In this document: positions 27,001 through 33,000 of the stretch, piece by piece
Layout: each line of letters starts with the position of its first letter
Position numbering within the stretch: position 1 is the stretch's first letter
From: Okamejei kenojei
Taxonomy: Eukaryota
Reading direction: 5' to 3'
DNA: 64,000 bases
NCBI GenBank assembly: GCA_035221665.1
Contig: CM069149.1
Coordinates: 11,842,001-11,906,000 of the forward strand
Program-made: the position numbers

Positions 27001-30000
27001 TTCTACCGTTTTGTGTCTATCTTCAGCGTAAACCAGCATTGGCAGTTCCTTTCTACACTTTGGAGGCAATATCCTGGTGTGTATTGAAGATTGGTTAATG
27101 GACAGAAAGCAGAAAGGGGGAATAACTGAGTTTTTTGGACTGGGAGAGTGTGACTAAGCGAGTGCTGGGGGGGGGGGGGGATTGGTTCTGAGGGCCCAGC
27201 TGGTCACAATCTATTTAAAAGATTAGAACAATGAGACTAAGATTAATATATCAAATTTGCTGATGATGCAAAGCTAGATAACGTGGTGGTTGTGGGGATG
27301 ATGTAGAAGGCTTCAGGCAGATATGGACAGGTTAAGTGAATAATGGTAGATGGCATATGACATGGAGAAAAAATCATGGTCATTCACTTCGATAGAAAAA
27401 AATATATAAAAGCAGAGCATTCTTTAAGTAATGAGAGATTGAAAGCTGTTTGTGTTTAGGGGAACCTGCATGACCTTGCATATAAAACATTGTAAATTAA
27501 CCTGCAAGTATTACAAACAAATAGAAATACAAATAGATGGTGGACCTTTTTTACCAAGAGGAATAGTAGAGTAGAGTGTTCCTTCAATTGTAAAGAGCAT
27601 CAATGAGACTGCATTTAGATATCAGGATTGATCTCCCTTTTTGAAGGATATTTCTGCCATGGAAAGAATGCCAGAAATATTCTGGGTTCGTGGGTTTGTC
27701 ATCTAGAAAAAGATTTAACAGGTTGGGACAATACTTATTGTGGTTCAAAAGAAGGTGATCTCATTAAAATCTATAACTTTTTAATGGGGCTTGGTGGGGT
27801 AAGTGTGGTGTGGATGTTGCCCCTGGCTGGGGTGTCGAAAACTAGAGGTCTCTCAAAGTAAGTGGACAGCTACCTTAGACCAAGATGAGAAGCAACTTCT
27901 CTCTGGGATATAGTGAATCCAAGGAATTTTCTTCCCCAGAGGGCTGTGCAGGCTTACTTACTGGCACTTCATGAAAGCTGTGGATAGCATTTTTTACGTT
28001 GGGGAAAAATGTTGAGTTTGTCCTGAGGTAAAAGTTCAAACATGATCTGATCAAATGATAGAGGAGGCACAAGAGACCTAATTACTAAATCCTACTTTCA
28101 TTTTTGGCCTATTTTCTAATGTATTGAATAATTCAGCTTCTGAGGTATTGTGAAAGTATATTAAAGCATGGTAGTTTTTTTGACCATGGTCCAGCTTACA
28201 TTCTGAGACCCTCTATTGTGCAAAGGGCAATATTTTTATTTTATTTTCTGTTCACGGTGAGGGATGGAAATGCTGTATAAAGACAAAAAAAATTACATGA
28301 TCAATTATGAGCCAGGTGCATAAGCAATTCCTTTTCATCTTCATGCAAAAGGTATTTGCAAAGAACTCTACTGTATAACCTCTCTATTATTTCTTATTAT
28401 TGATCATTGTTGACCCTTTTTCTCAGGATATAAAATTACATTGAATCCAGTGAGATTCATAGTCACACAGCGTGCTGACCAAGACATCCATCTAAGGTAG
28501 ACCCATTTGCTCACATTGACCCATATGCTTCTAAACCTTTCCAATCCATGTACTTTCCAATCCGTGTCCAACTATCTTTTTAATATTGTACCTGCCACAA
28601 CCTCTTTGGAGATGAAATGTGAAACCGTAATCCCGCAGTTTCCTATCTTTTCTCTCTCAATTTTAAATGAATGTTCTTGATTCCCCAATCCTGGGAAAAA
28701 AGACAGCATGCATTCACCCCATCTAGTCCAACATCCTCTTGTATTCCTTCTACTCTCTTTCCAACGTAATGGCATAGTTCCTATTGGAGACTGACTAGAA
28801 CTAAACACATTACTCCAAATTCAGCCTTCCAATGCCTTGTAACATAACATCCCAATTTCTATACCTAATGCCCCAATTAATGAAGGCCAATGTGCCAAAA
28901 GCCTTCAGCAGCACCCTACTTACCTGTGACGCCACTCTCAGGGAACAATCTACTTGTACTTCAAGGTTGCTCTGCTTTACAGCACTTGCCAGGGCCCCAT
29001 CATCTACTGTAAAGGTCCTGCCCTAGTTTGACTTCCACAAACGCAACACCTTTCACTGATATGATTTAAACACTATTTGCTTTTCATCTGCCCCCTTACC
29101 TAGCTGATCAAGACCCTGCTGTCATTTTTGATAATCTTCTTCACTTTCTAGAATATTACATATTTTCGTGTCATTTGCATATTTACTAACTGGGCATTGT
29201 ATATTCTTATCCAACTTGGTGATATAGTGACAAATAACAATGGGCCTAGCACCGACCTTTGAGGCTCACCACTAATCATGGGACTCTGCAAAAACCTTGT
29301 CCAATAAACTTTTGCTCCTGTCTTATACCATCAAAATTTGCTCCAATTTTGAACTTTAACGTGGACCAGTTCAGTCCTTTTCCATGACTATTTAAAAATA
29401 ACTAATTCAATGTTTCTTTGTTATCACATGTACCAAATGATATTAGAAATTCAGCGGGTGAGGCAGCACGAAGGAAATGGGCAACGTTTCGCACCCGCTC
29501 ATTTTCTCCAGCACTTTTGTCTACCTTCGATTTTCCAGCATCTGCAGTTCCTTCGTAAACATACCAAATGATATATATATTTTTTTGCATACAATTCAGT
29601 AAATTATTACCATACATAAGAACAATCCCAGATTAAGTACAAAGATAGCCCAGTGAGACCATATGCAAGAGCTGCCAAGTTTTGCGTCACTTTCAAAGTC
29701 CAAGCTGCAGATGGCCGTAGATGAACATTGCAGCTGTCACCTCCATCCAGATCATCCAGCCAACCATTGACCCTCTCCTCACCCTTGTGCTCTGGGGGCG
29801 CCTCCCACAGCTGGTGTTGAAGGCGCGGAAGGTAAGACCCCGTGTAGGAAGGAATTGCAGTTGCTGGATTAAACTGAAGATAGACACAAAATGCTGGAGT
29901 AACTCAGCAGGACAGGCAGCATCTCCAGAGAGAAGGAATGGGTGACGTTTTGGGTTGAGACCCCTCTTCAGACCCTTTCCAACTGGTAGCTCCTCTCCTG

Positions 30001-33000
30001 CATCTGGCCCACGCTCTTGTCAACTTGCAGAATTGCTCGCACAATGTGAACTCGTATTTATATTGGCATCTTGGCATCCCAAGCTACCAGTTGGAAAGAG
30101 TTTGCAGAGGGGTCTCCACCCGAAACGTCACCCATTCCTTCTCTCCAGAGATGTTGCCTGTCCTGCTGAGTTACTCCAGCATTTACTCCGCTGAGTTACT
30201 CCAGCATCTTGGGTAAGACCCCCCCCCCTTCTTACCAGCCCTTTGTTCTTGCATCTGTTCTTACCTTCTCTGCACTGTTTTCCAAGAGTAGGTCAAGCTT
30301 TGCCCTCTCCTTGGTAGCCCCCCTGTATATTGCCTGAGGAACATGTCCTACACACTTAATAAACTCCACTACATCAAAACTCTGAGCACTATTGGGAAAG
30401 TTAAAATCCTCTCCTATTCTTGAAACTCTCTGCAATCTTCTTGCATATTTGTTCCTCCAATTCCTGGTGATTAATGGGGGGGGGACTATTGGACTATTGA
30501 TAATGAAATCTCACAAGGTGATCATCCCTTTTTATTTCTCAACAGTATAATATAGATACATGTGAGGTTATCCACTTTGGCGGCAAAAACAAGGGGGCAG
30601 ATTATTATCTCAAAGGGATTGGGTTAGGTAAGGGGAGGTGCAGCGAGACCAGGGTGTCCTTGTACAACAATCACTGAAAGTTGGCGTGCAGGTACAGCAA
30701 GCAATGAAGAAAGCTAATGGAATGTTGGCCTTCATAACAAGAGGATTTCAGTATAGGAGTAAAGAGGTTCTTCTGCAGTTGTATAGGGCTCTGGTGAGAC
30801 CACGTCTGGAGTATTGTGTACAGTTTTGGTCTCCTAAGTTGAGGAAGGACATCCTTGTGATTGAGGCAGTGCAGCGTAGGTTCACGAGATTGATCCCTGG
30901 GATGGCGGGACTGTCATATGAGGAAAGATTGAAAAGACTAGGCTTGTATTCACCGGAGTTTAGAAGGATGAGGGGGGATCCTATAGAAACATATAAAATT
31001 ATAAAAGGACTGGACAAGCTAGATGCAGGAAAAATGTTCCCAATTTTAGGTGAGTCCAGAGCCAGGGGCCAAAGTCTTAGAATAAAGGGGAGGCCATTTA
31101 AGACTGAGGTGAGAAAAAACTTTTTCACCTAGAGAGTTGTGAATTTATGGAATTCCCTGCCACAGAGGGCAGTGGAGGTCAAGTCACTGGATGGATTTAA
31201 GAGAGAGTTAGATAGAAGGGGCTAGTGGAATCAAGGAATATGGGGAGAAGGCAGGCACGGGTTATTGATTGGGGACGATCAGCCATGATCACAATGAATG
31301 GCGGTGCTGGCTCGAAGGGCTGAATGGCCTCCTCCTGCACCTATTTTCTATGTTTCTATGTTTCCACCCATAAAGCCTCATTGGATGATCACCCAGTAAT
31401 TTGTTCTCAGACTACTGCTGTGGTGTTCTCATTAATCAAAAATGCACCCACACCCCCTCCTCTCTGTCTCCCACCTCTCCCTCACATAGCACCTGTACCC
31501 GAGAACATTCAGTTGCCAGCCCTTAACCATGTTTCTGTAATGGATAAAATATCCCACTCCCATTTACCTATCCTAAGTCACATCCACCTTGACTGACAGA
31601 CCTATTCTACTGAAATAACTGCAGTTTAATCTAACAGTCCTTCCTCGCTTCCTGCCATGCTCCTGCCTATCTTGCCTACTGAACTTGCTGCCGTTGACTT
31701 CTGTACCAGTTTCTCGCCTCCCTCATTACTGTTTTGGATCTTACCCTACTGTCTAACTACTTTAATCCTCCCCCCCCCCCCTAATAACACTAATGAAAAT
31801 GCCTGGCAGGCCATTGGTCTCTCTGCAGCTCACCTGCAACTCTTCCCACTCCTGAAGATAGACACAAAATGCCTGAGTAACTCAGTAGGGCCGGCAGCAT
31901 CTCTGGAGAGAAGGAATGGGTGACGTTGTGGGTCGAGACCCTTCTTCAGACATCTCGACCCAAAAAGTCACCCATTCCTTTGCTCCAGAAATGCTGCCTG
32001 TCCCGCTGAGTTACTCCAGCATTTTGTGTCTATCTTTGGTTTAAACCAGCATGTGCAGTTCCTTCCTACACCTTCCCTCTCCAGCCCCAGGAGAGATACC
32101 ATTTGCCCAAAAATCAGAATCCCTGCTGCCTGCGGCAACTCTTCGGCAGCTCATTCATCTGTGCTCACCTTCTAGCATGTGGCACTGACCACAATGCGGA
32201 GGTTAGCACATGGCATTGGGAGTAACACAGTGGTTACTCCTGGGACCGGTTTGAAGAAGAATGGTGAATTCTCCTTGGTGAACTAGCCAGTTTCCATGCT
32301 TAAATTTATACCTAAAAACAGATTATCAACTCACTTTTGTGCTGCAGATGTATGCAAATTACCTCCTAAATTTAACTATGTTACCTTTAAAACCTTTGCA
32401 AAATTATTTTATAAATTGTAAAATGCTGTGGAATTCCTTCAGGTTATTACAGGATTGTATATATATCTTTTGAAGCAGCCCATCACAACTATTGATTTGT
32501 ACTCATGAAGTAAGAAATGTATATGTCGAAGTAACACCAACTCTTTTGTCAGCAATGGCACAGATGATGCACAAGAGCTCAAATGGACTATCAGGCCAAT
32601 GCATTAATTTAACATTATTTTGCATTGTTTTCTATTCCATAGTGACTTGGCTAACGAAAACAAGCAACAGATTTTTTTGTGAAGAAATATAAACATGCTA
32701 TGATATTATGCCATCTTTGTACCAGATGTGGGAAATTCATAATGTTTAAGATCTTGAATGCAGGAACATATAGTCCTGGTTGAGCCAGTACAGCCGTAGC
32801 TCCCGAAACCTGTGTTCAATCCTGACCTCTTGCGCTGTCTTTGTGGAGTTTGGATATCTTCTCTCAAATGAGTTTCCTCCAGGAGCTCCAGTTTTGTCCC
32901 ACATCCGTAGGTAGATAATTGGCCACTGTGTAAATTGTCCCCAGTGTGCAGGTGAGTGGTAGAACATGGTGAGAGTTAATGTTTCAGTTTAGTTTATTGT

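What the first reader, a model, noticed from the sequence alone, without database searches (positions are those of the whole stretch)
29831..30222. Penelope-mediated retro-copy of TMTC2 promoter sequence placed 13.5 kb downstream in intron 1
Seen: ~30000-30180 is the reverse complement of ~16310-16465, i.e. non-PLE promoter sequence plus the adjacent PLE tail (both translate to LAELLAQCELVFI in the ORF track). The copy has an 11-bp TSD (GGTAAGACCCC) and an inverted 5' arm that also duplicates 17 bp of cargo (CTTTCCAACTGGTAGCT 29975-29991 / 30082-30098). The intronic copy shows three CpG-to-CpA changes where the promoter copy keeps CpG. Known: PLE insertions often carry an inverted 5' arm. Inference: an antisense (divergent) transcript from the TMTC2 CpG island ran into a PLE tail and was reverse transcribed and reinserted locally. 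That would be a fossil of germline divergent transcription and of host-sequence capture by PLEs. Caveat: the promoter copy now lacks ~25 bp that the intronic copy has, so either it was deleted later or a third source exists.
Basis: partly seen in the sequence, partly recalled or inferred. Interest (0 to 1): 0.75.

Follow-up and report, generated by a model that had tools for sequence, protein, structure and literature searches.

The report
Retroelement insert carrying copied TMTC2 promoter DNA
A small hairpin-shaped retroelement insertion in the first intron of a shark or ray TMTC2 gene carries about 100 bases copied from that gene's own promoter 13.5 kb upstream, a rare but already known kind of host-DNA capture by Penelope-like elements.

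Summary
An 11-nt target-site duplication (29831-41 / 30212-22) frames a 370-nt insert. It has two inverted arms of an abundant ~100-135-nt repeat, each extended by 17-18 nt, around a 90-nt spacer. The extension and 80 nt of the spacer match 16379-16465, inside the CpG island about 470 bp upstream of TMTC2 exon 1 in an elasmobranch, not human.

The repeat has Penelope-like (PLE) architecture: head-to-head dimers, a 35-nt tail on one arm only, 9-13-nt duplications and a minimal hammerhead-like core. No PLE ORF lies in the window, and Rfam finds no hammerhead.

New evidence gives the direction. The promoter repeat copy has its own exact 10-nt duplication (16293-302 / 16379-88), and the intron copy carries that junction. 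So the promoter locus is the source.

The tail-bearing left arm is the primary 3' end, and its tail is absent from the promoter locus. A template switch from a genuine PLE RNA onto promoter-locus sequence is therefore needed.

Whether that template was antisense RNA or DNA is open. Genome-wide copy number could not be checked. This is a new member of a known kind, of moderate interest.

The parts
29831..29841 (.). Left copy of the 11-nt target-site duplication (GGTAAGACCCC)
   Evidence: Exact direct repeat with 30212-30222. Null P(>=11 nt)=0.00075.
29842..29876 (-). 35-nt PLE 'tail', the canonical 3' end of long-type copies
   Evidence: It aligns from its first base with 7 other long-type copies. 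Tail-to-tail matches are 25-33 of 35. It is absent from the right arm and from the promoter locus.
29877..29973 (-). Left arm: repeat unit body, sense on the minus strand, with a decayed hammerhead-like core at its inner end
   Evidence: It carries the non-majority G shared with the right arm and the promoter copy.
29974..29991 (-). 17-18-nt extension of the left arm beyond the family's normal 5' boundary, copied from the promoter locus (its duplication plus 6-7 further host bases)
29992..30001 (.). 10 nt of unexplained origin at the junction between the spacer and the left arm
   Evidence: Homology to the promoter stops at 30002 / 16465. A weak match to 16487-16497 would imply a ~27-nt deletion; not significant.
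30002..30081 (-). Cargo: copy of promoter sequence 16396-16465, including a TATA-like box (30055-30063) and an 8-nt insertion
30082..30099 (+). 17-18-nt extension of the right arm. Here it is contiguous with the cargo exactly as at the promoter locus.
30100..30211 (+). Right arm: short-type repeat unit with no tail, sense on the plus strand, with a 25-nt tandem duplication (30165-30182 / 30190-30207)
30212..30222 (.). Right copy of the 11-nt target-site duplication
16293..16302 (.). Left copy of the 10-nt duplication (TTTCCAACTG) framing the promoter repeat copy
   Evidence: Exact repeat with 16379-16388, sitting at both family boundaries. Null P(>=10 nt)=0.0015.
16303..16378 (-). Source-locus repeat copy: short-type monomer, antisense to TMTC2, with a 26-nt internal deletion
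16379..16465 (+). Source of the captured sequence: right duplication copy plus promoter DNA with a TATA-like box (16411-16420)
   Evidence: It lies in the CpG-rich island.
16933..17013 (+). TMTC2 exon 1 coding part (27 codons; GT follows two further bases)

Best explanation
This is one PLE-type retro-insertion in TMTC2 intron 1. It picked up about 100 nt of the gene's own promoter region because an older, dead PLE fragment sits beside that sequence.

**Step 1 (shown).** A short-type PLE fragment inserted, antisense to TMTC2, about 560-630 bp upstream of the start codon. It made a 10-nt duplication.

**Step 2 (shown by the 11-nt duplication; the mechanism is inferred from the family's other dimers and from in-vitro work on an Anolis PLE).** Later, a PLE enzyme cut the intron site with an 11-nt stagger. 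Both DNA ends primed cDNA on genuine PLE RNA. One started at the 'long' start site, giving the left arm with its 35-nt tail. The other started at the 'short' site, giving the right arm.

**Step 3 (sequence shown; the switch is inferred).** In the other dimers both cDNAs stop at the family's normal 5' boundary. Here both switched, within the shared repeat body, onto a template of promoter-locus origin. They ran on into its flank: one by 17-18 nt, the other by about 107 nt, through the TATA-like box.

**Step 4 (inferred).** The longer cDNA was joined to the shorter one, leaving 10 unexplained bases.

The most likely promoter-locus template is a minus-strand (antisense to TMTC2) transcript that starts at or beyond 16465 and reads into the dead fragment. 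The product is probably neutral: a roughly 120-bp-stem hairpin in intron 1.
For: **PLE-type family**
- The window holds 47 matches to the 150-nt reference, counting the two intron arms and the promoter copy.
- 12 of these form head-to-head pairs. In all 8 pairs where one arm reaches the tail end, the tail is on one arm only, and the partner ends at reference position 115-119 in 7 of the 8. The gap between arms is at most 17 nt in all 8.
- Exact flank duplications of 9-13 nt occur in 6 of 24 insertions, against a null of 0.4% for 9 nt or more.
- A hammerhead-like core (CTGANGA, 10-16 nt, GAAAC) occurs 7 times against 0.42 expected. Six of the 7 lie in family copies.
- These features match published PLE anatomy: an inverted 5'-truncated copy and a 30-40-bp tail at one end (PMC8557442); an inverted pLTR, a 31-bp tail and a 9-bp duplication (PMC3846280); minimal hammerheads with an unpaired base before stem II and a tiny palindromic helix III (PMC4209133).

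**Direction, promoter to intron**
- The exact 10-nt duplication sits at both family boundaries of the promoter copy. Both intron arms hold that duplication plus 6-7 further promoter bases.
- A non-majority G is shared by the promoter copy and both arms. Only 2 of 23 other copies have it, and both look misaligned.

**Single event**
- The two arms differ at 8 of 103 positions. The cargo differs from the promoter at 8 of 82 aligned bases.

**Template switch**
- The tail on the left arm matches family tails at 25-33 of 35. The promoter flank matches them at only 18-23 of 35 (random mean 17.7).
- The Anolis enzyme extends both strands, starts at two internal sites with the tail lying between them, and needs RNA beyond those sites (PMC11167929).

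**Cargo is not family sequence**
- 0 of 44 other fragments carry it.
- Two copies that do extend upstream share a different sequence.
Against: - No PLE reverse transcriptase or GIY-YIG ORF was found in the window. 95 of 105 ORFs of 90 aa or more, plus one of 54 aa, were scanned; the only RT hits are LINE-type.
- Rfam gives no hammerhead hit at gathering score or at E<=10.
- The model needs both cDNAs to switch onto promoter-type template, which is not parsimonious.
- The 10-nt promoter duplication also resembles the start of the family tail (CAGTT..AAACC).
- The 9 nt just 5' of the hammerhead core (GGAAAGGGT) pair 8 of 9 with the bases after the predicted cleavage site. Only 35 of 127,982 window 9-mers pair as well. 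Part of the '17 nt' could therefore be PLE-derived. I read both resemblances as microhomology used at the two junctions, but that is inference.
- In the 3' part of the unit the promoter copy has changes that neither arm shares. This fits the switch, but it also fits later decay of the promoter copy.
- Genome-wide copy number of the cargo is unknown.
- No RNA data were available, so antisense transcription is unproven.
Confidence: 0.55

Rival explanations
1. DNA-templated capture. The cDNA ends of an ordinary PLE insertion intermediate invaded the homologous dead fragment 13.5 kb away on the same chromosome. They copied promoter DNA directly, as in synthesis-dependent strand annealing or templated break repair, before being joined. 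No antisense transcript is needed.
For: The product is the same as in the RNA model. This rival explains simply why the outer parts of the arms, tail included, are genuine family sequence while the inner parts are promoter-locus sequence. It also explains why the donor is nearby in cis. The dead fragment lacks what the Anolis enzyme needed in an RNA template (PMC11167929).
Against: No read passage reports such DNA templating for PLEs. I searched and read passages only. Both ends would have to invade. RT-driven template jumps and read-through transcripts have been proposed for PLE captures (PMC3846280).
Confidence: 0.2
2. Third source or subfamily. The composite (repeat plus 17 nt plus cargo) is a multi-copy element, or it passed through an intermediate copy elsewhere that had acquired a tail. 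On this reading the intron copy does not descend directly from the present promoter locus.
For: The left arm's tail and the 26 nt missing at the promoter are not present in the promoter locus today. The 9 nt upstream of the hammerhead core complete a helix I. A TATA-like box lies about 45 nt upstream of the unit, as PLE pLTRs can have (PMC3846280). The genome could not be searched.
Against: Only two copies of the cargo exist in 64 kb that hold 47 family matches. The promoter unit's own 10-nt duplication shows that the repeat inserted into pre-existing cargo-bearing DNA. The two copies that extend upstream of the normal boundary share a different sequence. Arm-to-arm and cargo-to-promoter divergence are alike.
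Confidence: 0.15
3. A single antisense promoter transcript that ended in the resident PLE fragment was itself the only template. The right arm is the 3' end and the left arm is the inverted 5' arm.
For: The right arm is contiguous with the cargo, as at the promoter, and is short-type like the promoter copy.
Against: The supposed inverted arm carries a genuine 35-nt family tail that neither the right arm nor the promoter locus has. In all 8 tail-bearing dimers of the window the tail marks the primary arm, not the inverted one.
Confidence: 0.07
4. DNA-level segmental duplication or chance similarity.
For: None beyond the similarity itself.
Against: Homology stops inside the 11-nt duplication. 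The 500-nt flanks match the promoter region only through unrelated family fragments. The match itself has E=2e-25.
Confidence: 0.01

Closest known systems
Capture of unrelated host DNA between Penelope pLTRs, framed by target-site duplications, in the rotifer Adineta vaga (Arkhipova et al. 2013, PMC3846280; passages read)
   Same: Non-element sequence sits between PLE terminal repeats, one of them inverted. There is a tail on one side and a short duplication. That paper also proposes read-through transcripts and template jumps as the cause.
   Different: This case is in a vertebrate (an elasmobranch). The arms are about 100-135-nt fragments rather than full pLTRs around a gene. The donor locus can be named, lies 13.5 kb away in the same gene, and shows the direction through its own duplication.
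LINE-1 5' transduction and chimeric retrocopies made by RT template switching (recalled; no paper read here)
   Same: Flanking host sequence upstream of a resident element is carried to a new site, and a switch between two templates at a shared or adjacent sequence gives a chimera.
   Different: The source element here is a dead fragment of about 76 nt, not a competent full-length element. The enzyme family and the twin-primed inverted architecture are PLE-specific.
Canonical PLE head-to-head dimers of the same family in this window (for example 31852-32071, 45298-45513, 47190-47392)
   Same: Short inverted arm plus long arm with a 35-nt tail; 9-13-nt duplications.
   Different: Their arms meet with at most 17 nt between them and stop at or inside the family's 5' boundary. 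The intron copy's arms both run 17-18 nt past that boundary and enclose 90 nt.

Membership tests
Penelope-like element (endonuclease-containing) insertion | Inverted 5'-truncated copy directly adjacent, head to head | tested here: met
   12 head-to-head pairs in the window, plus the intron copy. Feature as described in PMC8557442.
Penelope-like element (endonuclease-containing) insertion | [quoted passage not shown] | tested here: met
   A 35-nt tail on one arm only in all 8 tail-bearing pairs, and in the intron copy at 29842-29876. PMC8557442, PMC3846280 and PMC11167929.
Penelope-like element (endonuclease-containing) insertion | Minimal hammerhead ribozyme motif in the terminal repeat | tested here: inconclusive
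   The core pattern occurs 7 times against 0.42 expected, 6 of them in family copies. Its shape fits the description in PMC4209133. Rfam gives no hammerhead hit. Both intron arms have mutated cores. No cleavage test was done.
Penelope-like element (endonuclease-containing) insertion | Short target-site duplication of variable length | tested here: met
   9, 10, 10, 11, 12 and 13 nt in 6 of 24 insertions.
Penelope-like element (endonuclease-containing) insertion | Autonomous partner with telomerase-like RT and GIY-YIG endonuclease | tested here: inconclusive
   None among the 95 of 105 ORFs of 90 aa or more scanned; only LINE-type RVT_1 with ALKBH8_N. The 10 ORFs not scanned overlap 15731-17293 and 29610-30019. 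The rest of the genome cannot be searched here.
5' transduction (flank carried by a read-in transcript) | Carried sequence is contiguous with the element's 5' end at a source locus | tested here: met
   16303-16378 (unit) and 16379-16465 (flank) are contiguous, and so are 30082-30211 and 30002-30081.
5' transduction (flank carried by a read-in transcript) | Source element supplies the complete 3' end used for priming | tested here: not met
   The promoter copy has no tail and lacks 26 nt that the arms have.
5' transduction (flank carried by a read-in transcript) | Transcript from an upstream promoter through flank and element | not testable with these tools
   No RNA data.
Foldback or MITE-type DNA transposon | Symmetric terminal inverted repeats and a duplication of fixed length | tested here: not met
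   The arms are asymmetric (tail on one only), monomers with duplications exist, and duplication length varies from 9 to 13 nt.
SINE or tail of the LINE present in the window | Repeat shares the LINE's 3' end | tested here: not met
   The LINE 3' region 41839-42134 is a different repeat, with its own copies at 55788-56063 and 60375-60678.

The most novel reading that the evidence does not exclude
Dead 100-nt PLE fragments scattered through elasmobranch genomes act as homology bridges. A PLE reverse transcriptase that has started on its own RNA can switch into any transcript that reads into such a fragment and carry the adjacent host sequence to a new site. On that reading this insert is a datable fossil of germline antisense transcription from the TMTC2 CpG-island promoter, and one instance of a general route by which TATA boxes and other promoter pieces are dispersed.
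Probability: 0.3. Interest if true: 0.55.

Novelty: new member of a known kind. Interest (0 to 1): 0.35.

Why it matters
Little is known about how PLEs build their tandem and inverted structures. The first in-vitro system dates from 2024.

This natural insert records three things together:
- twin priming at the short and the long start site;
- cDNA that ran past the normal 5' boundary;
- a donor locus that can be named.

It therefore constrains the mechanism: a template switch inside the repeat body. If such captures prove common, this one would show how PLEs move host regulatory DNA in vertebrates.

On its own it is a single, probably neutral intronic fossil.

Tried and rejected
- **Rfam.** I scanned the whole window at gathering score and two sub-regions at E<=10. 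There was no hammerhead or other credible family. The weak miRNA-precursor hits only reflect the hairpins.
- **PLE ORF.** None was found.
- **LINE tail.** The repeat is not the 3' tail of the LINE at 42580-44133.
- **Decayed tail at the promoter.** The promoter flank matches family tails at 18-23 of 35, around the random 95th percentile. Only the first ~11 nt are alike, so I rejected it as a tail and read it as microhomology.
- **Cargo as the family's own upstream region.** Rejected for this window.
- **DNA transposon or foldback reading.** Rejected.
- **Exon-1 search.** The first try was below the tool's minimum length. I repeated it with 13 in-frame upstream codons added.
- **Literature search on 5' transduction.** It failed on a character rule and was not repeated. 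That comparison is from recall.
- **Not run.** There was no genome-wide BLAST of the cargo, no orthologous empty-site check and no RNA-seq or CAGE check.
- **Supplements.** None was opened. The supplementary figures of PMC11167929 (tail and start-site mapping) may bear on the start-site comparison.

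
Full report
**Where we are.** The window has no N. An ORF at 16855-17019 (+) contains a start codon at 16933, followed by 27 codons, two further bases and then GT. This exon was searched on its own, with 13 in-frame upstream codons added to reach the tool's minimum length. 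It hits 'protein O-mannosyl-transferase TMTC2-like' of Heptranchias perlo (96% over the 27 residues) and TMTC2 of Mobula birostris (93%). A tblastn of those two proteins against the window finds only residues 1-27, at 16933-17013. Everything downstream in the window is therefore most simply intron 1. I take the contig for an elasmobranch, not human.

The region 15600-17800 has CpG observed/expected of 0.87-1.2, apart from one 200-nt window (16200-16399) at 0.51. The window as a whole has 0.44, and the intron site has 0.25.

**The observation.** All its elements are real.
- The 11-nt direct repeat lies at 29831-41 and 30212-22.
- The inverted arms lie at 29889-29991 and 30082-30184, 95/103 complementary, with 90 nt between them.
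- The 17-nt word is present in both arms.
- There is a reverse-oriented match to 16354-16451 (84.8% over 99 columns, E=2e-25). A global alignment extends it from the repeat body to 16465 / 30002.
- The shared peptide string is confirmed.
- Three promoter CpGs are CpA on the + strand of the intron copy. One site goes the other way.
- The insert folds as a single hairpin of -222 kcal/mol (z=-20.9).

**What the arms are.** The arm is one of the commonest repeats in the window. A 150-nt reference gives 47 matches, including the two arms and the promoter copy. An alignment of 28 copies shows three things:
- a sharp 5' boundary at (C)AGTCTGAAGA;
- two kinds of 3' end, short and long, the long one carrying about 35 further bases;
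- frequent head-to-head pairs.

Of 12 such pairs, 8 have an arm that reaches the long end. In all 8 the extension is on one arm only. In 7 of the 8 the partner stops at reference position 115-119. In all 8 the arms are at most 17 nt apart. Six of 24 insertions keep exact flank duplications of 9-13 nt; the null is 0.4% for 9 nt or more. The 5' part of the unit holds CTGANGA, a short hairpin, then GAAAC-GTC. That pattern occurs 7 times against 0.42 expected, and 6 of the 7 lie in family copies.

This is the anatomy described for Penelope-like elements:
- high 5' truncation, an adjacent inverted 5'-truncated copy and a 30-40-bp tail at one end (PMC8557442, passages);
- an inverted pLTR 37 bp shorter than the direct one, a 31-bp tail and a 9-bp duplication (PMC3846280, passages);
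- minimal hammerheads with an unpaired base before stem II and a minute palindromic helix III (PMC4209133, passages).

The Anolis PLE protein cuts and extends both strands. It starts reverse transcription at two internal RNA sites, and the tail is the stretch between them (PMC11167929, abstract and whole main text).

Two things count against the assignment. Rfam finds no hammerhead. No PLE ORF is present among the 95 of 105 ORFs of 90 aa or more that I scanned. The 10 left out overlap the promoter and the insert. The only RTs are LINE-type, and the LINE's 3' region is a different repeat.

**Orientation of the insert.** By the family's own rule the tail marks the primary 3' end. The tail is on the left arm, at 29842-29876; it matches other tails at 25-33 of 35. 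The insert is therefore canonical on the minus strand: short inverted arm (30211 to 30100), then the 18-nt extension, 90-nt spacer and 18-nt extension, then the long arm with its tail (29973 to 29842).

**Direction of copying.** The promoter copy (16303-16378) is a short-type monomer, antisense to TMTC2, with a 26-nt internal deletion. An exact 10-nt direct repeat, TTTCCAACTG, lies at 16293-16302 and 16379-16388, exactly at the two family boundaries (null P=0.0015). This is within the family's range of 9-13 nt. The repeat therefore inserted into DNA that already read ...GAGG-TTTCCAACTG-GTACCTTGGG..., and the 'cargo' is contiguous host sequence.

Both intron arms contain that duplication plus 6-7 further promoter bases, and the right arm continues through 80 more. 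All three copies share a G where 21 of 23 other copies have A. The junction is specific to the promoter locus, so the promoter lineage is the donor.

The two arms differ at 8 of 103 positions. The cargo differs from the promoter at 8 of 82 aligned bases. This fits one event. Homology does not pass the 11-nt duplication, and the cargo has no third copy in the window.

Two copies that do extend upstream of the normal boundary (37402 and 58813) share a different sequence, with a TATA-like word 29 nt before the boundary A. So the cargo is not the family's own upstream region, at least as sampled here.

**What the simple model cannot explain.** The promoter locus has no tail. Its flank matches family tails at 18-23 of 35, against a random mean of 17.7 and a 95th percentile of 21. 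It also lacks 26 nt that both arms have. In vitro, the Anolis enzyme needs RNA beyond the start sites, and a short-type insertion no longer contains that RNA. A transcript of the promoter locus alone therefore cannot have given the left arm.

The outer parts of the arms must come from genuine PLE RNA, and the inner parts (from about the shared G inwards) from a promoter-locus template. A template switch within the repeat body achieves this. Read-through transcripts followed by template jumps have been proposed for other PLE captures (PMC3846280).

Both give the same product.

**Loose ends.** Ten bases (29992-30001) at the spacer/left-arm junction are unexplained.

The promoter duplication resembles the start of the tail. 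The 9 nt before the hammerhead core (GGAAAGGGT) pair 8 of 9 with the bases after the predicted cleavage site, and only 35 of 127,982 window 9-mers do as well. The dimer at 47190-47392 has a similar junction. I read both resemblances as microhomology used at the priming junction and at the 5' junction, but they leave room for part of the 17 nt being element-derived.

**Comparison and verdict.** Capture of unrelated sequence between PLE terminal repeats, framed by a duplication, is in print for a rotifer (PMC3846280). Searches turned up no vertebrate case or one with a named donor in cis, but I read only listings and passages. The L1 5'-transduction comparison is from recall.

I file this as a new member of a known kind. 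The insert is probably neutral and of moderate interest, mainly for what it says about PLE mechanics.

Genome-wide copy number, orthologous empty sites and RNA evidence stayed unchecked, because no eukaryotic genome or read collection was available.

Noticed in passing
window 37368-37412 and 58894-58938 (minus strand); family 5' boundaries generally: The repeat's sharp 5' boundary reads (T/C)CAGTCT, which is initiator-like. The two copies that extend further upstream share about 35 nt with a TATA-like word 29 nt before the boundary A. The abundant 100-135-nt copies may be full-length cDNAs of a short RNA running from the pLTR start site to the RT start sites, not 5'-truncated copies.
   Followed up: partly
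window 47290-47296 (junction of the dimer 47190-47392): The long arm begins at reference position 49, the base after the predicted hammerhead cleavage site (GTC). The junction places a helix-I-like strand directly before the core of the other arm. Other long arms start at positions 32-49.
   Followed up: partly
window 30165-30207: A 25-nt tandem duplication lies in the right arm, close to the short RT start site. It may be a trace of re-priming or slippage.
   Followed up: no
window 42580-44133 (-) and 56788-57650 (-): An open 518-aa ORF carries RVT_1 (E=1e-26) and ALKBH8_N domains, a LINE-type reverse transcriptase. A second, broken copy lies at 56788-57650. The presumed 3' region 41839-42134 has copies at 55788-56063 and 60375-60678.
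   Followed up: partly
window 44114-44841; copies at 30623-31364, 54128-54830, 63537-64000: A repeat of about 730 bp lies just 5' of the LINE ORF. One copy is 96.8% identical over 464 nt, which suggests it is recent. No Pfam match in its ORFs.
   Followed up: no
window 1600-2800, 8000-8700, 48100-49200, 54900-55500: Further GC- and CpG-rich stretches. The first two hold C-rich tandem repeats with periods of 18-66. Their ORFs have no Pfam match.
   Followed up: no
window 16411-16420 and about 16650-16685: A TATATAAATA word on the + strand lies about 510 nt upstream of the TMTC2 start codon, inside the captured segment. An (AC)n run lies between it and the start codon. Whether the TATA word is the gene's core promoter is untested.
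   Followed up: no
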